Below, one piece after another: positions 7,998 through 19,536 of a stretch of 41,420 nucleotides of DNA. This DNA is from a virus (Duplodnaviria > Caudoviricetes), in IMG/VR virus record IMGVR_UViG_3300025270_000024, positions 1 through 41,420 of that record, one strand, 5' to 3'. The notes beneath the pieces were generated by a model. It was not told the DNA's origin. It made no database searches and saw only the letters and a list, made by a program, of their open reading frames with translations. A program made the position numbers and the translations under genes. The stretch's first letter is position 1. Every line of letters begins with the position of its first letter.

Positions 7998-8789
7998 TTA
8001 CGCCTCGCAGTATCCGCTACATTCTTCGCCAAATAATTCAATCTGGTCTTCCTGTAAATACACCTCATCGAGCGGTTTACAGGAGCGATGCACGTAGGGT
8101 TTCCCGTCGAGCTTGCTGAATACAAATGACTCTCTGACTTCCTTGTCGAATGCCACGACATCGTTCCATTCTTCTGGCCGCTCTCGCTTCATGTCCAAAA
8201 AATACCGATTGCTGTGATAAGGGCAACCGATACAGCTTGACTTCATGGGTAACGGAAGGTCGTGCTTTTCTATGTACCGCTTACAGGATTCCCGATTCCA
8301 CCCAAGTTCAATCAATGGATACCGATGGACAGTGTTGGTTTCCCGACTGGGTTTCATTCGTTGTGCTTCATCGGTCGAAATGCCTATCCACATTCCAATG
8401 TGGTCTTTAAGTCTTTGTTTTGGTTTATAACCCAACCGTTTTCGCAGTTCCTGACGAATGGGTTTGATTTTGTAATCGTCCGTGCATTGACGCTTGGTCA
8501 TGCCTATATCCCCTGCGTCGTCACGGGTGAACAACGGGATATCCATAGCGCCACGATTACTTCGGATTGAGCCTTTTGTGATGGTTACCACTTCAATACC
8601 ATATTTCTCAGCATACTCAGTCATAAAACGTACGTGATCTGTGACTGCAACGGGTTCCCATTGGGTGTCAGCAAAGATAGCGACATCTGGACGCATCCTA
8701 TCTGGAAGGTCGTTATGGCACGCGGCCAGTAGCAATGCGCTCGATTGAACTCCCCCTCCGTAACTCAAACACTTGTACGGTTGTGTCAT
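7998..8789 (-). CDS. PAPS-reductase-like PP-loop (adenine nucleotide alpha hydrolase) protein
   Basis: 'SYGGGVQS', 'FADTQWE', 'RQCT..YKI.PI', 'YPL', 'KSSCIGCPY', C-terminal 'CSGYC'. Confidence 0.8.
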   Translation of the reverse strand: MTQPYKCLSYGGGVQSSALLLAACHNDLPDRMRPDVAIFADTQWEPVAVTDHVRFMTEYAEKYGIEVVTITKGSIRSNRGAMDIPLFTRDDAGDIGMTKRQCTDDYKIKPIRQELRKRLGYKPKQRLKDHIGMWIGISTDEAQRMKPSRETNTVHRYPLIELGWNRESCKRYIEKHDLPLPMKSSCIGCPYHSNRYFLDMKRERPEEWNDVVAFDKEVRESFVFSKLDGKPYVHRSCKPLDEVYLQEDQIELFGEECSGYCEA

Positions 8790-9079
8790 TGTTCTATCTT
8801 AATACGATGCTCGGTCACATCACGATGGCATTTCCTGTGCAACATGACACAGTTCTCCAGACTAAAGAGTTCTTCAATCGGTCGGCCTCGCAGTTGAGCG
8901 CGGCTTTTCAGTTCGTGCATTTCAGGGGTCTGCTCTCCTGTTCCGAATATCTCCCCGCAGACACGACATCTCCTGTCACGCATTGACACCAATAGTCGTA
9001 TCTTGGCGATATGTGCCTTGCGACGAGCCTTCTGAGCCGCCTTCTCTTTTTTCCGAGGTTCTAGTTTTGGGAATTGCAT
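8786..9079 (-). CDS. Small HNH endonuclease
   Basis: 'RD..CRVCG...MHE...ENCVMLHRKCH...T'; no SD upstream of the ATG. Confidence 0.75.
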   Translation of the reverse strand: MQFPKLEPRKKEKAAQKARRKAHIAKIRLLVSMRDRRCRVCGEIFGTGEQTPEMHELKSRAQLRGRPIEELFSLENCVMLHRKCHRDVTEHRIKIEQ

Positions 9080-9088
9080 GAGATTGGT

Positions 9089-9180
9089 GGAGTACGGGGA
9101 GTACTGGGAAGGAGGTGGACTGGCGATCCACGACTGAAACCTCTCGGTTCCAGCAAACCCAGGGGGCTGCCCCGCACCCC
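9089..9180 (-). ncRNA. Putative structured sRNA (three-way junction) antisense to early-gene start motifs
   Basis: - strand fold: P1 GGGGUGCGGGG/CCCCGUACUCC (11 bp); P2 CUGGG/CCCAG; P3 CUGGAACC-GAGA-GGUUUCAG; P4 GUGGA-UCGCCAG-UCCAC; junction CUCCUU. Three G-U pairs work only on the - strand. Confidence 0.7.
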
Positions 9181-9184
9181 GAAG

Positions 9185-9754
9185 TTATTTTACATGAGTT
9201 CTGGTTCTCTTGAGTCGTGATTTTGCTCTTTCTTTCTCAAGCACTGGATTACGAGTCCAGCACTGGCAATGCTGGTAGCGTCTGTCTTGAACCTCCACCC
9301 ATCCTAAATCCCGACACGTTGGACACGCATAGGTCGGCACCTTCGGCGTGGATACCTTCATGGCGTGGTCGGCTGAGAGCGTGCGGCCAGTGAGTTTCTC
9401 CATCTGCACCACGAACTTAGCACGGGCCACCTTGATCCGCTCAACCTCGCTCCCCTCTGCATCTCTCGGTGCGTAAAGTTGCTTGAGGTCGGTGTTGGTA
9501 TCCTCGACCAGTGATTCCGCTGCAATATTGTCTGCCATGCGGAACCATGTTCCCGCATCTGGCATAAACGCGCCTGGTGTCCGTTTAAGTTCCCGTGCGG
9601 CCTGTTCAACGGCATCTATCGGCAGTTCGCCAAGCAGTTCAAAATAGGATTCATACTCAGCCTCATCATGTTCCCCTGACTTGGAAACAGCGAGGTTGTT
9701 AAATGCCTGTAGGAACCTCTGAGGCTCCCCTGACGTATAACGATGCGTCATCAC
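9185..9754 (-). CDS. Replication-associated protein (helicase-loader-like), C-terminal Zn motif
   Basis: Follows the initiator; 'YFELL.ELP...F.P.A'; CPTC...CQC. Confidence 0.55.
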   Translation of the reverse strand: MMTHRYTSGEPQRFLQAFNNLAVSKSGEHDEAEYESYFELLGELPIDAVEQAARELKRTPGAFMPDAGTWFRMADNIAAESLVEDTNTDLKQLYAPRDAEGSEVERIKVARAKFVVQMEKLTGRTLSADHAMKVSTPKVPTYACPTCRDLGWVEVQDRRYQHCQCWTRNPVLEKERAKSRLKRTRTHVK

Positions 9755-10512
9755 GATGATTCCTCCTTATGGCGCGATAAGAACCCCTCAGAGGCCGATA
9801 CGAGCGATTGTGTCTGCTTGCTGACCTTTGGGGTTGGAGTGGGTAGTTCATCCTCCCATTGCTGCTGCCGTAGCCATGTGGTCGGATGAGGGATATAGCG
9901 TTGAGCCGTTTGGTTGGCTCTCCAGTATTGGTTGTATCGCTTTGTTCCCTCGGAAATAGACTCCCATAGGTCATCGTCGGTTTCTACGTCCAGCTTATCC
10001 CATACCTTGAGAGCAGCCTGTTTCTTAGCCTTGCGGGGATATTGTCTCCACCATTCCTTAAATCTCGGATGCGTCGTTTTTTGTACTACTTGATCTTTAT
10101 TAGTACTTAATTCTTTATATAACACACCCGCCTGACGCATTCGGCTACGAGCGGTCTTTATCGTTGACGTAGTTGGCTCAGGTAGGGGTATTTTATCGTG
10201 GTAGGTAGCGACATCAATATGGCTACCCTGCACCATAATCAATTCGTACTCGTTTGGCATCCAGCCGTTCTTCTCGGTACGGTTGTGGATGACCTTCAAG
10301 CATCCCTCATCCCTAAGCGCATGTATCCACCTGTCGATGGTTTCTACCGTGACATCCATCAGGTCGGCCATCTCTGCCCTCGATAGCTCAGTGCGCTTGT
10401 TGGTATAGACCGCATGAAGATACAACCAGAGTCTAAGCGCCCCCGCTGGAATGTTTTTACTGAGAACCATCCAGAGGGGAACAACAGCTAAGGCTCCCGT
10501 CTGGAGTCTCAT
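9751..10512 (-). CDS. Phage replication initiator (N-terminal wHTH)
   Basis: 'SRAEMADLMDVTVETIDRWIHAL' HTH; 'FKEWWRQYPRK..K..A...W', 'IPHPTTWL.Q..WEDE'. Confidence 0.8.
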   Translation of the reverse strand: MRLQTGALAVVPLWMVLSKNIPAGALRLWLYLHAVYTNKRTELSRAEMADLMDVTVETIDRWIHALRDEGCLKVIHNRTEKNGWMPNEYELIMVQGSHIDVATYHDKIPLPEPTTSTIKTARSRMRQAGVLYKELSTNKDQVVQKTTHPRFKEWWRQYPRKAKKQAALKVWDKLDVETDDDLWESISEGTKRYNQYWRANQTAQRYIPHPTTWLRQQQWEDELPTPTPKVSKQTQSLVSASEGFLSRHKEESS

Positions 10513-11030
10513 CGTGTAACCAGCGTGACATCTGTCTCAACGCGACATCCTGGCATGGAGAACAAGCCACCGAATTGCTTGGCGATCTTGTTGAGCGCAG
10601 GGATATTAGGTTTTACAACATCGCTGGATACCTTGCCCTCGGCAATCGCTTTAATTAAGGCATCAACATCCTCAACAACAACACGACTAGTGGTGAGGCG
10701 ATGGTGATTGAGTTGCTCGGTGAGGGCAGCTTGATCCAGCCCGTCCTCGTTTGTGTCCTCGTATTCCTGAATCAGTACCGAGAGGCGTTCTTCTGATGGG
10801 GCCAGTTTCGCAAGGTCGGCCTTCTCCATGTCCAGTACCGTCTTACGGGTACCGTTCAGCGCATCCTTAATCGGTTTGTAGTGGCTTGTGATGGTGCGTC
10901 TCATCATCTGCACGACTGAGAGGTGTTCGCACGCCATCTGATACGTCTGCGGATCGTGAACCTCCAGCGTTACCTCGCTGATCTGGTTCAGTTGTGTCTC
11001 GACCTTCTTCGGAAGTTTCCTGATTGCCAT
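10509..11030 (-). CDS. Coiled-coil recombination-module protein (Gp157/Gam-like)
   Basis: AAGGAGG RBS before MAIRKLP; C-terminal 'N.IAK....MPGCRV'. Confidence 0.5.
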   Translation of the reverse strand: MAIRKLPKKVETQLNQISEVTLEVHDPQTYQMACEHLSVVQMMRRTITSHYKPIKDALNGTRKTVLDMEKADLAKLAPSEERLSVLIQEYEDTNEDGLDQAALTEQLNHHRLTTSRVVVEDVDALIKAIAEGKVSSDVVKPNIPALNKIAKQFGGLFSMPGCRVETDVTLVTR

Positions 11031-11566: not shown

Positions 11567-12313
11567 CTAGAACGGGATATCTTTAGCCGTAACTTCTTGC
11601 GCTTCCACGGTGAAGTTTCCCGCTTCGATCATGTTGATGATTTCCTCGTACTTCTTCCACTGGATATCTTCAAGGCCATTAAAGCCAAAGTTTTCCTTTG
11701 CATAGCCCTTAATAGACTCAACGTCAGCATCCTTGCCTTTCGCAATGGCGTACAAGCGCTTCAGTTGTTTTTCAGAGATGCACCCTGGTTTCTTATTCCC
11801 GTTCGCTTTGGGTGGAGCCGTCTGCGTTACGGGCTTGGATGGTGTTATCTCAGTCCTGTGGTTTTCTGCGTCGGGTGCTTCACCATTGCCGTTGTCGGTC
11901 ACACAGAGAAACATCTTTGCTACGAGGAATTTACTGGCTGCGGTGGTGGCCTTGTTGATGCCCTTATCGCTGGCATCTGCGCCTTCGGCACGCCACGGGA
12001 TATCAATGACTTCTCCCGTATCACCATCCATGAGTCGATAGTTCATGCTGATTGTCACAAGACCCTTCTCAGGAACACGCTCCACGCCCGTGATCGACGG
12101 GATGAGCATAATATGATTCGCCGCCATCTTGCCCCGAATGGCATCAAAGAGTTCTGGCTCCATCACATACTTATAATTGTGATGGGCGTTGTAACCCTTC
12201 ATGGGGACTTCTTCAATCTCGCCCATAATTTGAGACAGTTTAGCGACGAGTGATTTCGGTTTCCCGTTCGTTCGTTTCTTTGTTGTCTTGGGTACAGCTG
12301 CTTCTTCTACCAT
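11567..12313 (-). CDS. erf: ERF-family ssDNA annealing protein
   Basis: 'KGYN....YKYV', 'G.D.SDKG..KATTAA.K', 'ISEKQLKRLYAI'; acidic DIPF C-terminal tail. Confidence 0.85.
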   Translation of the reverse strand: MVEEAAVPKTTKKRTNGKPKSLVAKLSQIMGEIEEVPMKGYNAHHNYKYVMEPELFDAIRGKMAANHIMLIPSITGVERVPEKGLVTISMNYRLMDGDTGEVIDIPWRAEGADASDKGINKATTAASKFLVAKMFLCVTDNGNGEAPDAENHRTEITPSKPVTQTAPPKANGNKKPGCISEKQLKRLYAIAKGKDADVESIKGYAKENFGFNGLEDIQWKKYEEIINMIEAGNFTVEAQEVTAKDIPF

Positions 12314-12531: not shown

Positions 12532-12701
12532 CCTATAAACTCAGGTTGTTTTTTCAGGAAATCAATAGCCTCTTGTTTACTGGAGACACCAGTAACGATA
12601 TCGCTATAGGTCATTCCTGTCGGCAGCGTGTCGTGTTCAAGCATCGACACCAACCAGTCTCTACTCATCTTCATTGGTAATGTTTTGGGTTTTGTTGCCA
12701 T
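12528..12701 (-). CDS. Hypothetical protein (57 aa, not in ORF track)
   Basis: MATKPKTLPMKMSRDWLV...; preceded by GGAGGAACTGGCG motif. Confidence 0.6.
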   Translation of the reverse strand: MATKPKTLPMKMSRDWLVSMLEHDTLPTGMTYSDIVTGVSSKQEAIDFLKKQPEFIG

Positions 12702-12720
12702 CGCCAGTTCCTCCGTATTT

Positions 12721-12906
12721 TTACCCGTTATTTAAGTGTGGTAACAGTTTCTCTATACGCCGCAATCTGTTTTCAAGCCATTTCTCAGATACTTGATACG
12801 GTTCGCCCCAACAGTATTTCACCATGAGTTCCCCGTGGAGCCGTTCAAGCAATTCAACAAGATCACGCTTAGTAGACTTAACTGGTACTTCGCCATAACC
12901 GTGCAT
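12721..12906 (-). CDS. Hypothetical protein
   Basis: Preceded by the identical start motif and a sigma70 promoter. Confidence 0.6.
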   Translation of the reverse strand: MHGYGEVPVKSTKRDLVELLERLHGELMVKYCWGEPYQVSEKWLENRLRRIEKLLPHLNNG

Positions 12907-12948
12907 CGCCAGTTCCTCCGTATTTTTAGATAAAACAACGCTACAGTG

Positions 12949-15611: not shown

Positions 15612-15788
15612 TTACTTGTCCTCCGTAATACCAAGTTCGTTGTTGATGAGGGTATCAAGCTGTTTCTTGACTTCTGGTTTATCGTCAAGCCCCATGATGA
15701 CAATGTGATCGTCTTTCCAGTGTTTTAAGCGATCTTGTCGGAAAGACTCCACGACACTATCCGTTGCGTTTTCTGTTTTGTTTTTCAT
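15612..15788 (-). CDS. Hypothetical protein (58 aa, not in ORF track)
   Basis: MKNKTENATDSVVESF...; start motif AAGGAGTAACTGGCGATG. Confidence 0.6.
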   Translation of the reverse strand: MKNKTENATDSVVESFRQDRLKHWKDDHIVIMGLDDKPEVKKQLDTLINNELGITEDK

Positions 15789-15827
15789 CGCCAGTTACTC
15801 CTTTTGCTTGTTTATTATAGTGTATTT

Positions 15828-16067
15828 TCAACTGTTGAAAGGTTTAGATAGCTTATTGAACTCTGCCATTGCTTTAGCTGCAGCTTCGGCGCTCCCTTCT
15901 TCGGACTCTCCTGTAGCAGTAACCATTTGACGCATACTGCCATCCATCATGCGGTGATACCGACCGCTACGAATAGCTGCAACAAATGTTTTTGTATCGT
16001 GGTCAAATACTACTTCTATATTTCTGGTGTTAAAATTCCAGTCCCGCATTTCAAAGTTTTCAGTCAT
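15828..16067 (-). CDS. Hypothetical early protein
   Basis: Start motif AAGGAGTAACTGGCGATG. Confidence 0.6.
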   Translation of the reverse strand: MTENFEMRDWNFNTRNIEVVFDHDTKTFVAAIRSGRYHRMMDGSMRQMVTATGESEEGSAEAAAKAMAEFNKLSKPFNS

Positions 16068-16081
16068 CGCCAGTTACTCCT

Positions 16082-17134: not shown

Positions 17135-17161
17135 AAAAAAGGGTACCTTGACGGTACCCTT
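17135..17161 (-). terminator. Rho-independent terminator
   Basis: AAGGGTACC-GTCAA-GGTACCCTT followed by a T-run on the - strand. Confidence 0.75.
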
Positions 17162-17184: not shown

Positions 17185-17682
17185 TTATACAACTGACCAA
17201 CACTCAGTCCATGTATCGCCATCACGTGACCAGAGCGTACAGTTACCGTGGTCGTTGACTGCTAAGTAATGCGTATATTCGGCTGGAACGTGTTCTTCTA
17301 CGCTGTTAGTCTCAATCGTTGACGTAAAGACAAAACCATCAAAACCGCCTTGCCTGGTATCCTCAAATAATTCAGGTTCTGGCCATACGCCAAAATCAGC
17401 GCCATCGCCTTGGTGCATACCTAGATAGCAATAATCGGGAGTGTAGTTATCTGCTATCTCTTTGGTCTCATCAAAGATGTATTCGAGCTTTTCTGAATAC
17501 TCTTCTTCAGATTCTTCCAAGCGTTCTATTTCTTCTGAGAATTCCCTTTTGAGTTTCTTAAGGGTATTCAGATCGTTTGTATCAAGATCAAGCCTGTCCA
17601 TATGCCAGATCAAGTTATTCCCGATATCTTCGGTTTTGAGGGTACCCTCACTAATCGTGCCTAAATCAAATTGTGTCTGCAT
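17185..17682 (-). CDS. Very acidic early protein
   Basis: Start motif; 'G.H.GDGADFGVW', 'VNDHGN'. Confidence 0.65.
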   Translation of the reverse strand: MQTQFDLGTISEGTLKTEDIGNNLIWHMDRLDLDTNDLNTLKKLKREFSEEIERLEESEEEYSEKLEYIFDETKEIADNYTPDYCYLGMHQGDGADFGVWPEPELFEDTRQGGFDGFVFTSTIETNSVEEHVPAEYTHYLAVNDHGNCTLWSRDGDTWTECWSVV

Positions 17683-17715
17683 TGCCAGTTATCTCCTATC
17701 TAAAGTGTATGGTTC

Positions 17716-17843: not shown

Positions 17844-17868
17844 AAAAAGGCACCTGTTACAGTGCCTT
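17844..17868 (-). terminator. Rho-independent terminator
   Basis: AAGGCAC...GTGCCTT followed by a T-run on the - strand. Confidence 0.65.
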
Positions 17869-17884: not shown

Positions 17885-18184
17885 TTAGCTGAGATCGTCC
17901 ACAACTGACCATAAACCCCAGTCACCAAAAGTATCAGACGTACCCCAGTAGCAGTTGTCTACACCGTAATGCTCATTCATGTAGTCGGTAGATCCGTCCC
18001 AATACTCGCCACTATTAGGACACATAGATAAAGTGTGATCGTCTAGCTGTTGACACTCATGCTTGATGTTGGCCCCGTGATCGTTCGCAATCTCGACGAT
18101 CCGATCAACCATATAGATTCCGTGGACGTTATCCACATAGCAACCAACATCTGTTGGTGTGTATGTTGTGGTTTTGTTTTTCAT
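17885..18184 (-). CDS. Hypothetical early protein
   Basis: Start MKNKTTT after AGGAGTACTGGCG. Confidence 0.6.
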   Translation of the reverse strand: MKNKTTTYTPTDVGCYVDNVHGIYMVDRIVEIANDHGANIKHECQQLDDHTLSMCPNSGEYWDGSTDYMNEHYGVDNCYWGTSDTFGDWGLWSVVDDLS

Positions 18185-18236
18185 CGCCAGTACTCCTATG
18201 TTTAATTGTTTCAACGGTTTGCGTGTTCTAGACTGC

Positions 18237-18605
18237 CTAGTCTCGGATCAGATCAAGCGCATCGTCTATCAATTCTACCGTCAGCCGTTCCAGGTCAGGC
18301 TTACTAAATGCTGACGTTATCGCTTTTTGCGCGGTAGAGTAGTGACAGCTGTATTCTTTGGCTATGTACGACGTAAAACGCATAATAAGAAAAGAGCGTA
18401 GGCGTTTTGGCTTGTTTTCGTTTTCTCGCAGGTACTCGCAGTTTTGCGTGTAGTCGTCTTGATTATCATAACTACCGTCAAGGTAGCATCTAAAGAGCCT
18501 ACGCATGACATGATTAGAATCGTTGATCATATCTGGTACAGTATCGTCTGGCCATCCTGTACTTAATGATTGTAGATCACGGCGTATCTGTTCTTTAATG
18601 GTCAT
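18237..18605 (-). CDS. Hypothetical early protein
   Basis: Start motif AAGGAGATAACTGGTAATG. Confidence 0.6.
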   Translation of the reverse strand: MTIKEQIRRDLQSLSTGWPDDTVPDMINDSNHVMRRLFRCYLDGSYDNQDDYTQNCEYLRENENKPKRLRSFLIMRFTSYIAKEYSCHYSTAQKAITSAFSKPDLERLTVELIDDALDLIRD

Positions 18606-18686
18606 TACCAGTTATCTCCTTATGAATAGTGCCAAGTATGCACTAGCAGGAGCATAGCATCGCGCTATGCTCTAGCCACTACAGAC

Positions 18687-18878
18687 TTATGTGTGCGAAT
18701 ACCCGTCCGATTCTACGCCGACAAACATACCGCACCATTGAATGCCTAGAACGGTATCACCTTGACTAAAACCAAACAGCGTGGCCCTACGTCTAAACTC
18801 TAAATAACTGTTCGATCCGTCGCTGTTTCGGCAGTAGAGCCTATGCAGCGATTCTATCTGCGCTCGTGTTATCTTCAT
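18687..18878 (-). CDS. Small conserved-looking phage protein
   Basis: 'YL.FRR....WCGMFVGVESDGYSHT'; start motif. Confidence 0.65.
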   Translation of the reverse strand: MKITRAQIESLHRLYCRNSDGSNSYLEFRRRATLFGFSQGDTVLGIQWCGMFVGVESDGYSHT

Positions 18879-18908
18879 TACCAGTTTCTCCTTGTGTAGT
18901 CGTGTTGT

Positions 18909-19139
18909 TTACCAGTCAAACGCGGTACAGACAGGGCCACATCCGCATTGCTCACAACTGTGCTTCCGGATATCCGCCATACGTTGAGCTTCTTGGCGCT
19001 TCAATCGCTTAATCGCTTCGTACCGTGGGCTTGTCCTAGCTGGAGCGCCGTTCACCAGTTGCTTACATCGTTCACACGTATCCGGTTCATAGCGACCGAA
19101 AGCCCCATTGTTGCGGCAGTTGTGTCTTACAAACTCCAT
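18909..19139 (-). CDS. Cys/His-rich small protein
   Basis: 'H.C....FG.....C.RC..L..G.PAR...H.C....CGPVCTAFDW'; start motif. Confidence 0.65.
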   Translation of the reverse strand: MEFVRHNCRNNGAFGRYEPDTCERCKQLVNGAPARTSPRYEAIKRLKRQEAQRMADIRKHSCEQCGCGPVCTAFDW

Positions 19140-19296
19140 TGCCAGTTATCTCCTTGTGTAGTGCGTAGCCATTTACGCTCCGACTGATACTGTCATATTA
19201 CAGTACGAAAGCATGACAACGCAATACCTAATATATATAGATACATGCTCATAGGTTAGGGTAATCGACCAAACTACCAATATCAATGTAGCTAGT

Positions 19297-19400
19297 TTTA
19301 GGTCAAATGACCCAGGTTCGTTTAGGTCAAACAACCGAAGTAGGTCATATGCCCGAAAGAATCCAGGTCACATGCCCTAAAGCGTTTAGGTCAAATGCCC
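19297..19400 (+). repeat. Five AGGTCA(N)ATG(C/A)CC direct repeats
   Basis: AGGTCA at 19300, 19324, 19342, 19365 and 19388 (spacing 24/18/23/23). Confidence 0.8.
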
Positions 19401-19536
19401 TAACGTCGAAACGAGCGCGTGCGTGCATAGGGGGGGGGAGGGGGGTTTTTACATTTACTATTACTGTTATATTCCCATTTACAAAATTGAGGACATCGGG
19501 ATGACTGATTGATGATGTGCTACACTGACTTACATC

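What the first reader, a model, noticed from the sequence alone, without database searches (positions are those of the whole stretch)
9109..9153. The sRNA resembles the 16S rRNA 3' end (helix 45 plus anti-SD) with an 8-nt insert
Established: bacterial 16S rRNA ends in the GGAA-tetraloop helix 45 followed by GGAUCACCUCCUU. Seen: the RNA has a GNRA (GAGA) hairpin followed by GU-GGAUC-[GCCAGUCC]-ACCUCCUU, i.e. the 16S tail split by 8 nt. The insert carries most of the complementarity to the early-gene motif. Inference: it is an anti-SD mimic that outcompetes 30S on tagged mRNAs. It might instead titrate host SD sequences broadly, or act as an adaptor that promotes initiation.
Basis: partly seen in the sequence, partly recalled or inferred. 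Interest (0 to 1): 0.75.

Follow-up and report, generated by a model that had tools for sequence, protein, structure and literature searches.

The report
Phage RNA clamp on translation starts
A family of uncultured phages carries a conserved stretch predicted to fold into a three-armed RNA whose two exposed patches match the ribosome-binding site and start region of the phage's own early genes and change together with them, so it likely switches those genes off by base-pairing rather than by copying the ribosome's RNA tail.

Summary
The quoted letters are there (minus strand, 9109-9153), but the "16S tail plus insert" reading fails. They sit in a 92-nt predicted three-way-junction RNA (9089-9180) with covarying stems, found in 18 distinct homologs. 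GGAUC and ACCUCCUU each occur in 2 of 18, and the GAGA hairpin is hypervariable. The supposed insert is the conserved part: a GCCA loop (17 of 18) followed by single-stranded CUCC (16 of 18). Together these match GGAG...UGGC at starts of the phage's own genes. Nine early genes here carry GGAG-N2-6-CUGGY (shuffles 0.24). In one relative the loop became GUCA; there 9 of 16 early starts carry GACU, none UGGC, and two orthologous genes switched AUGGC to AUGACU while the late scaffold gene did not. Best reading: a two-handed antisense RNA that likely blocks translation of early genes, working like phage P1 C4 RNA but unmatched in Rfam and aimed at a whole regulon. Pairing is well supported (about 0.85). 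Repression is inferred, because late genes often start AUGGC too, and no expression data or host were found.

The parts
9089..9180 (-). Predicted three-way-junction RNA, whole element, between the stop codon of the 189-aa ORF and the HNH ORF
   Evidence: Fold z -3.65; pairing probabilities; 18 distinct homologs
9158..9180 (-). 5' strand of basal stem P1 (9180-9170 and 9162-9158)
   Evidence: compensatory CUGGG/CCCAG to CUGAG/CUCAG in L220
9089..9108 (-). 3' strand of basal stem P1 (9108-9104 and 9101-9089)
9133..9154 (-).
   Evidence: 12-40 nt with unrelated loops in homologs
9115..9131 (-). P3 hairpin presenting the conserved GCCA loop (9124-9121): the hand that matches UGGC at or just before start codons
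   Evidence: GCCA in 17 of 18, GUCA in 1; each of the five stem positions shows 2 to 5 pair types; loop co-varies with targets
9109..9114 (-). Single-stranded junction CUCCUU: the anti-Shine-Dalgarno hand
   Evidence: Unpaired probability 0.99-1.0; CUCC in 16 of 18
19137..19153 (-). Tagged start GGAG-N5-CUGGCA-AUG, first early gene
18876..18891 (-). Tagged start, CUGGU wobble variant
18603..18619 (-). Tagged start, CUGGU wobble variant
18182..18196 (-). Tagged start with a 9-bp match to the loop region
17680..17696 (-). Tagged start
16065..16080 (-). Tagged start with a 9-bp match
15786..15801 (-). Tagged start with a 9-bp match
12904..12919 (-). Tagged start with a 9-bp match
12699..12714 (-). 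Tagged start with a 9-bp match
10509..11030 (-). 173-aa gene whose start (GGAG...AUGGC) tracks the loop across phages; in this phage only a 4-bp match
   Evidence: AUGGC in 12 of 13 GCCA-loop loci with a hit, AUGACU in G025
11567..12313 (-). Erf-family ssDNA annealing gene; its start tracks the loop across phages (AUGGU here)
17847..17868 (-). Terminator-like hairpin separating four tagged genes from the RNA
   Evidence: consensus match only
17139..17161 (-). Second terminator-like hairpin, separating a fifth tagged gene from the RNA
   Evidence: consensus match only
9185..9754 (-). 189-aa ORF after the replication initiator gene; the RNA follows its stop codon in most homologs
8786..9079 (-). 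Small HNH endonuclease gene without a Shine-Dalgarno sequence, usually directly 3' of the RNA; not shown to be part of the system

Best explanation
The element is a conserved, predicted three-way-junction RNA in the phage's replication operon whose GCCA loop and single-stranded CUCC match UGGC and GGAG at the translation starts of the phage's own early genes, and it likely pairs with those starts in trans and would block ribosome loading to shut early genes off. Shown from sequence: the covarying fold, the two conserved exposed patches, the repeated target tag, and the joint change of loop and targets in relatives. Inferred: (1) it is transcribed with the early/replication operon, because no promoter or terminator of its own was found; (2) it acts either within that transcript or after being cut out at the long basal stem; (3) the loop pairs with UGGC, which is either the start codon plus two bases (AUG-GC, the widespread GCCAU loop, which carries the initiator anticodon CAU) or a tag placed between SD and AUG (CUGGC, this lineage), while CUCC pairs with the SD and the P3 stem spans the spacer; (4) covering SD and start region blocks 30S binding, as C4 RNA does, so host-takeover and recombination genes fall silent once replication genes are on.
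For: Fold and conservation. A descriptor that leaves the loop sequence free finds the junction in 15 of 18 family loci (14 GCCA, 1 GUCA) and in 0 of 79 unrelated loci (216,647 bases). The coding strand folds better against shuffles than the opposite strand in 16 of 18. Targets in the window: 9 tags vs shuffle mean 0.24; GGAG plus at least 6 bp to the loop at 10 of 34 early/middle starts vs 1 of 25 late starts; two of nine tags carry the C-to-U change that keeps a G-U pair. Covariation: G025 has loop GUCA; GACU at 9 of 16 early SD-led starts vs 11 of 161 in 15 other phages, UGGC at 0 of 16 vs 69 of 161; G025 also has the tag as a spacer copy before AUG in 3 genes. Orthologous starts: the 173-aa gene begins AUGGC in 12 of 13 GCCA-loop loci with a hit and AUGACU in G025; the Erf-position gene begins AUGGC in 9, AUGGU in 2, AUGGA in 1 of 12, and AUGACU in G025; the late scaffold gene keeps AUGGCA in G025. 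CUGGY tags: 12 of 64 starts in five GCCAG-loop phages vs 0 of 89 in eight GCCAU-loop phages. Correlated decay: G014 has an irregular P3 and UGGC at only 2 of 7 early starts, and its sister L229 lacks the RNA at this site. Five of nine tagged genes lie beyond predicted terminators, which needs action in trans.
Against: Late SD-led genes carry UGGC as often as early ones when phages are pooled (49 of 93 vs 69 of 161; unrelated viral background 20 of 91). Capsid (7 of 7) and scaffold genes start AUGGC, so in GCCAU-loop phages the RNA would fit them too; pooled matches of at least 6 bp do not differ between early and late (28 of 110 vs 17 of 92, P 0.31). Positions flanking the 4-nt core track poorly: the cognate loop is best or tied-best in only 6 of 12 phages. 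All 12 CUGGY tags come from two related phages (window 9, L224 3); G006, G014 and L231 have none. The GUCA switch is one evolutionary event, and its P values count genes as if independent. Only 4 late SD-led genes could be called in the G025 fragment. The sign of the effect is not shown, and the gene starts come from my own simple caller.
Confidence: 0.6

Rival explanations
1. Same pairing, other purpose: the RNA represses early and late lytic genes alike to hold a carrier or plasmid-like state or to exclude related phages, as C4 and CI do for P1 and P4.
For: Capsid and scaffold starts fit GCCAU loops. In the window the starts of the replication initiator and the 189-aa gene, read just before the RNA, lack UGGC. 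C4 and CI are immunity RNAs (passages).
Against: No tyrosine integrase or serine recombinase in 5 of 5 records searched. Late genes did not follow the loop in G025 (scaffold) or in the window (CUGGY at 0 of 15 late SD-led starts).
Confidence: 0.12
2. Same pairing, opposite sign: the RNA is an adaptor that favours translation or stability of tagged phage mRNAs over host mRNAs.
For: The phage enriches the site on its own genes, including highly needed capsid and scaffold genes.
Against: Pairing covers the SD and in most lineages the AUG itself, the sites that 16S rRNA and initiator tRNA need (established knowledge). The scaffold gene, an obvious beneficiary, did not switch in G025. No conserved third patch that could bind a ribosome was seen; P2 is hypervariable.
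Confidence: 0.1
3. The RNA guides the neighbouring HNH protein to cut tagged mRNAs or the corresponding DNA: an RNA-guided counterpart of T4 RegB.
For: The HNH gene directly follows the RNA in most homologs and has no SD in the window. It has a long basic N-terminal helix (residues 9-34).
Against: L233 has another gene after the RNA; L229, L248 and L249 have the HNH gene without the RNA in front of it. The protein is a plain PF01844 HNH (8 of 13 members) with no structural match at E 0.001 or better.
Confidence: 0.06
4. The tags are binding sites for a phage protein (RegA- or RegB-like, or a DNA-binding repressor), and the element works from the opposite strand as a decoy that displays GGAG and UGGC.
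For: The plus strand of the element reads like a tag, and covariation alone cannot tell complement from copy.
Against: The coding strand folds better in 16 of 18 homologs, strongly so in the window (z -3.7 vs +0.3). No plus-strand promoter-like site was found near it. A GGC-to-GAC switch would need the protein to change as well.
Confidence: 0.06
5. One reading: a structural mimic of the 16S 3' end that titrates Shine-Dalgarno sequences generally, host ones included.
For: CUCC is conserved and exposed.
Against: GGAUC and ACCUCCUU each in 2 of 18, GNRA hairpin not conserved; no rRNA model match; the phage's own genes are enriched, not depleted, for the site.
Confidence: 0.03
6. A cis-acting leader or processing signal for the downstream SD-less gene, with the match to early starts secondary.
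For: Fixed position 30-60 nt before the HNH start in most homologs; long basal stems could be RNase sites (inference).
Against: It does not explain why loop and distant gene starts change together. The window's HNH start has no GGAG or UGGC to pair with.
Confidence: 0.04

Closest known systems
C4 antisense RNA of phages P1/P7 (Rfam RF01695) and CI RNA of P4
   Same: Three stem-loops; two short separated antisense patches, one giving specificity and one partly covering the ribosome-binding site; embedded in a longer transcript (passages of PMC5320573; PMC4825925).
   Different: No model match. In C4 the specificity patch binds upstream of the RBS, here downstream, at or just before AUG. C4 and CI serve immunity at a few sites of one operon in temperate phages; here about 9-16 dispersed early starts are tagged and no integrase was found.
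T4 RegB endoribonuclease and RegA repressor
   Same: Early mRNAs are singled out by GGAG plus a downstream element and inactivated at their translation starts; RegA covers the AUG region of about 30 mRNAs (passages of PMC3014915).
   Different: Those are proteins.
Start Associated Sequences (SAS) of cluster K mycobacteriophages
   Same: A repeated SD-containing motif before non-structural genes, with extra conserved bases that cannot pair with 16S rRNA and a single reversed copy not at a gene start; partner unknown, 'either RNA or protein' (passages of PMC3203893).
   Different: Different sequence and phage group; no partner has been shown for SAS. Here the reversed copy lies in a covarying RNA whose loop tracks the tags.
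3' end of 16S rRNA (helix 45 and anti-SD)
   Same: Exposes CUCC, which pairs with GGAG (helix 45 description recalled and taken from the finding).
   Different: Nothing beyond the 4-nt core is conserved. In most homologs the second patch resembles the initiator-tRNA anticodon CAU (recalled), not rRNA.

Membership tests
16S rRNA 3'-end mimic | Conserved GGAUC and ACCUCCUU | tested here: not met
   2 of 18 each
16S rRNA 3'-end mimic | Conserved GNRA-capped helix of fixed length before the tail | tested here: not met
   P2 12-40 nt with unrelated loops
16S rRNA 3'-end mimic | Exposed anti-SD core CUCC | tested here: met
   16 of 18; unpaired in the window
C4 antisense RNA (RF01695) | Match to the covariance model | tested here: not met
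   No C4 hit in cmscan of the region at E up to 10 or of 15 homolog loci at E up to 1; 0 of 5 records, where no positive control rang
C4 antisense RNA (RF01695) | Three stem-loops with two separated antisense patches, one over the RBS | tested here: met
   Predicted junction in 17 of 18 under a constraint that kept loop and junction open; two-handed complementarity
C4 antisense RNA (RF01695) | Processing from a precursor by RNase P | not testable with these tools
   No raw RNA reads available
C4 antisense RNA (RF01695) | Role in lysogeny and immunity of a temperate phage | tested here: inconclusive
   No integrase or serine recombinase in 5 of 5 records; a plasmid-like state is not excluded
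Trans-acting base-pairing sRNA | Seed co-varies with targets | tested here: met
Trans-acting base-pairing sRNA | Expressed as RNA and changes target translation | not testable with these tools
   No RNA holder listed
HNH-associated guide RNAs (IscB/omega type) | Partner with RuvC and HNH domains, strictly linked to the RNA | tested here: not met
   97-aa stand-alone HNH; linkage broken in L233 and L229

The most novel reading that the evidence does not exclude
A phage-encoded RNA that imitates both RNA-RNA contacts of the translation initiation complex at once (anti-SD and initiator anticodon) and acts as a reprogrammable master switch: the phage tags a whole regulon at its start codons, and a one-base change in the loop re-addresses it. 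The same logic may explain start-associated repeats in other phages, such as the SAS of cluster K mycobacteriophages, whose single reversed copy sits in the loop of a conserved intergenic hairpin.
Probability: 0.45. Interest if true: 0.9.

Novelty: new variant of a known kind. Interest (0 to 1): 0.8.

Why it matters
Early-gene shut-off at the level of translation is known from T4 proteins (RegB, RegA), and two-handed antisense RNAs are known from temperate-phage immunity. An RNA that addresses a dispersed set of early genes through tags at their starts would join the two. The natural GCCA/GUCA pair supplies a ready orthogonal test and a possible programmable translational repressor. It also makes the open question of what reads start-associated repeats in cultured phages directly testable.

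Tried and rejected
Rfam scans of the window (gathering), the region (E up to 10) and 15 homolog loci (E up to 1): nothing relevant. BLASTN of the region against annotated phages: only 36-nt chance hits. BLASTN of the element against 24 related records: 0 of 24, although three of them (G001, G003, G006) were later shown to carry it by structure. An exact-pattern scan of viral contigs gave 119 loci, none of which looked like the element by eye. Host search failed: no relatives in GTDB genomes, only distant capsid hits and no terminase hit in annotated phages, no informative names. A covariance model from a MAFFT alignment got no base pairs because loop registers differ, and it was not used. No RNA holder listed, and the one RNA run laid gave no contig; this is no evidence on expression. 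A CCA after the basal stem (possible RNase P signal) was noticed and dropped, since the 3' strand is C-rich and several homologs lack it. No second RNA matching the early starts of G014 was found by short patterns. The HNH model gave only weak generic HNH matches. Literature searches listed no paper on this RNA; the supplementary motif lists of PMC2864571, PMC5737381 and PMC8040213 were not opened and could hold it.

Full report
Setting. The window is a near-complete 41-kb tailed-phage record (CheckV 99%). Structural genes lie on the plus strand; an early/replication block lies on the minus strand from about 19.1 kb down to 6.2 kb, with Erf, an exonuclease, a replication initiator, an HNH protein and a PAPS-reductase-like protein. 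No tRNA and no Rfam family reach threshold. No host could be assigned. Some relatives carry TARA contig names, which suggests marine samples.

Observation. The minus strand at 9153-9109 has the letters described. They lie in the 105-nt gap between the stop of a 189-aa ORF (9185) and an HNH ORF without SD (9079). The gap folds into a three-way junction (z -3.65): basal stem P1 (9180-9158 with 9108-9089), hairpin P2 with the GAGA loop (9154-9133), hairpin P3 (9131-9115) and a single-stranded CUCCUU (9114-9109).

Homologs. Relatives were collected through the flanking proteins and the capsid protein. Sequence search does not find the element in distant relatives (0 of 24), but structure does. In 18 distinct copies GCCA is present in 17 and CUCC in 16, whereas GGAUC and ACCUCCUU are present in 2 each, the window and its closest relative L220. 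P2 runs from 12 to 40 nt. The five P3 positions show 2 to 5 pair types each, counted from the junction on folds constrained to keep loop and junction open. A descriptor derived from these copies but blind to the loop sequence finds the junction within 3 kb of the initiator gene in 15 of 18 family loci (missed: L232, whose junction reads CUCG, and L229 and L241, which lack it there) and in 0 of 79 unrelated loci. Run over 22 whole records it gave the 8 cognate copies and 10 other places, none with a GCCA or GUCA loop. The coding strand scores better than its complement against shuffles in 16 of 18.

Targets in this phage. Nine early genes have GGAG-N2-6-CUGG(C/U) just before AUG (shuffle mean 0.24, maximum 3 in 200). 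Five match the loop region over 9 bp, and two have the C-to-U change that keeps a wobble pair. With hand-picked starts, GGAG plus at least 6 bp to the loop occurs at 10 of 34 early/middle genes and 1 of 25 late genes, the capsid gene. RNA order (loop, then CUCC) is antiparallel to target order (GGAG, then UGGC). Predicted duplex energies are -8 to -15 kcal/mol for the loop and -7 to -10 for the junction, without the cost of opening structure. Two terminator-like hairpins separate five tagged genes from the RNA, so pairing would be in trans.

Covariation with targets. Many relatives (8 of the 18 copies) have the loop GCCAU, the complement of AUG-GC, and their early genes often start GGAG...AUGGC. 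G025 has the loop CUAGUCA. Of its 16 early SD-led starts 9 contain GACU and none UGGC, against 11 and 69 of 161 in 15 other phages (L221 left out as a near copy of the window; Fisher P 3e-6 and 3e-4, genes counted as independent). It has both tag forms, at the start codon and as a spacer copy before AUG. Orthologs agree: the 173-aa gene starts AUGGC in 12 of 13 GCCA-loop loci with a hit (no SD-led start found in L232) and AUGACU in G025; the gene at the Erf position starts AUGGC, AUGGU or AUGGA in 9, 2 and 1 of 12, and AUGACU in G025; the scaffold gene of G025 keeps AUGGCA. CUGGY spacer tags occur at 12 of 64 starts in five GCCAG-loop phages and 0 of 89 in eight GCCAU-loop phages, but all 12 come from the window and L224; in G006 the fifth base is paired in the stem. 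Protein trees place G025 beside a GCCAU phage (99/100), G006 beside another, and the window's GCCAG group together with moderate support (85/84), so the two loop/tag shifts arose separately. G014 has an irregular P3 and few tags, and its sister L229 lacks the RNA at this site, which looks like joint decay.

Results against. Met-Ala starts are common throughout these genomes: UGGC follows the SD in 49 of 93 late genes, against 20 of 91 in unrelated viral loci, and capsid and scaffold genes begin AUGGC. Pooled, long matches are not more frequent in early than in late genes (28 of 110 vs 17 of 92, P 0.31; one late hit was the RNA's own opposite strand). The cognate loop is best or tied-best in 6 of 12 phages. 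So in GCCAU phages sequence alone does not say how late genes would escape; excess late mRNA or decay of the RNA are untested guesses. One reading is that this conflict favoured the two shifts that do separate early from late genes (inference). Gene starts come from a simple caller of mine and include errors. No RNA data were found.

Mechanism. Most likely (0.6) the RNA is made with the replication operon, clamps SD and start region with two short helices, and blocks 30S loading on early and recombination genes. Pairing with the phage's own starts, whatever the sign, I put at about 0.85. Rivals: general repression for a carrier state or exclusion (0.12; no integrase found), activation (0.1), guide for the HNH protein (0.06), opposite-strand decoy for a protein (0.06), cis leader (0.04), generic 16S mimic (0.03).

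Comparison with known systems. It works like C4 RNA of P1/P7: three stem-loops, one patch for specificity and one over the RBS (passages of PMC5320573), and like CI of P4 in being embedded in a longer transcript (passages of PMC4825925). It is not a member of RF01695 (accession from passages of PMC2864571; no match, the last without a positive control). In purpose it would parallel T4 RegB and RegA (passages of PMC3014915). The first sixth of a 2025 review of phage sRNAs (PMC12197685) described no such case; I did not read the rest. Searches listed no paper on this RNA; motif supplements of the comparative-genomics papers were not opened. Earlier AI notes of this scan describe a similar anti-start junction RNA in a soil phage; that is a lead and not support.

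Side test on SAS. In the right half of Anaya I found 15 forward copies and 1 reversed copy; the reversed one lies in an intergenic stretch and is predicted to sit in a hairpin loop. The stretch is shared by 150 mycobacteriophage records. The loop keeps the anti-SAS core in Anaya, Murucutumbu and Amelie, reads as a plain anti-SD in Amohnition, and differs in Keshu, SirPhilip and Pixie; Pixie has 18 forward copies and no reversed one in the stretch read. This is suggestive for 3 of 7 phages and not a general answer.

Verdict. A real, uncatalogued structured RNA family with unusually direct comparative evidence for base-pairing to many start sites of its own phage. It is not a copy of the 16S tail. 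New variant of a known kind; interest 0.8.

Noticed in passing
L293:29835-29910 (phage Anaya, record JF704106) and L295-L299: The single reversed SAS copy of cluster K1 mycobacteriophages lies in the predicted loop of a conserved intergenic hairpin shared by 150 records; anti-SAS loop in 3 of 7 phages aligned, anti-SD in 1, different in 3.
   Followed up: partly
L218:10670-10730 (G014): Tandem CU-rich repeats containing CUCCAC follow the irregular RNA copy. Early genes of this phage use AGGA-type starts with a repeated element such as AGGACUAGAC and mostly lack the tag.
   Followed up: partly
window plus-strand genes 19552-40560 and relatives: Met-Ala (AUGGC) starts are unusually frequent in structural genes of this phage family (49 of 93 SD-led late starts vs 20 of 91 in unrelated viral loci), and many late genes have no SD.
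   Followed up: partly
window 19190-19420: Several short repeats of the form TTTGACCTA/TGTGACCT on the minus strand in the gap between the early and late blocks, next to a long C run; possibly origin or packaging iterons.
   Followed up: no
window 17847-17868 and 17139-17161: Two terminator-like hairpins on the minus strand are each followed by similar sequence (TGTACGCTCGTAA, then AAAGTCTGATC) before a promoter-like site, suggesting repeated early cassettes.
   Followed up: no
window 7998-8789: A PAPS-reductase-family gene that moves between positions in relatives (after the HNH gene here, directly after the RNA in L233, before the 189-aa gene in L232) or is absent.
   Followed up: no
G002, G007, G012 (for example G002 minus 9645): A second predicted junction with an A-rich loop and a pyrimidine-rich junction recurs in three records near the structural genes.
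   Followed up: no
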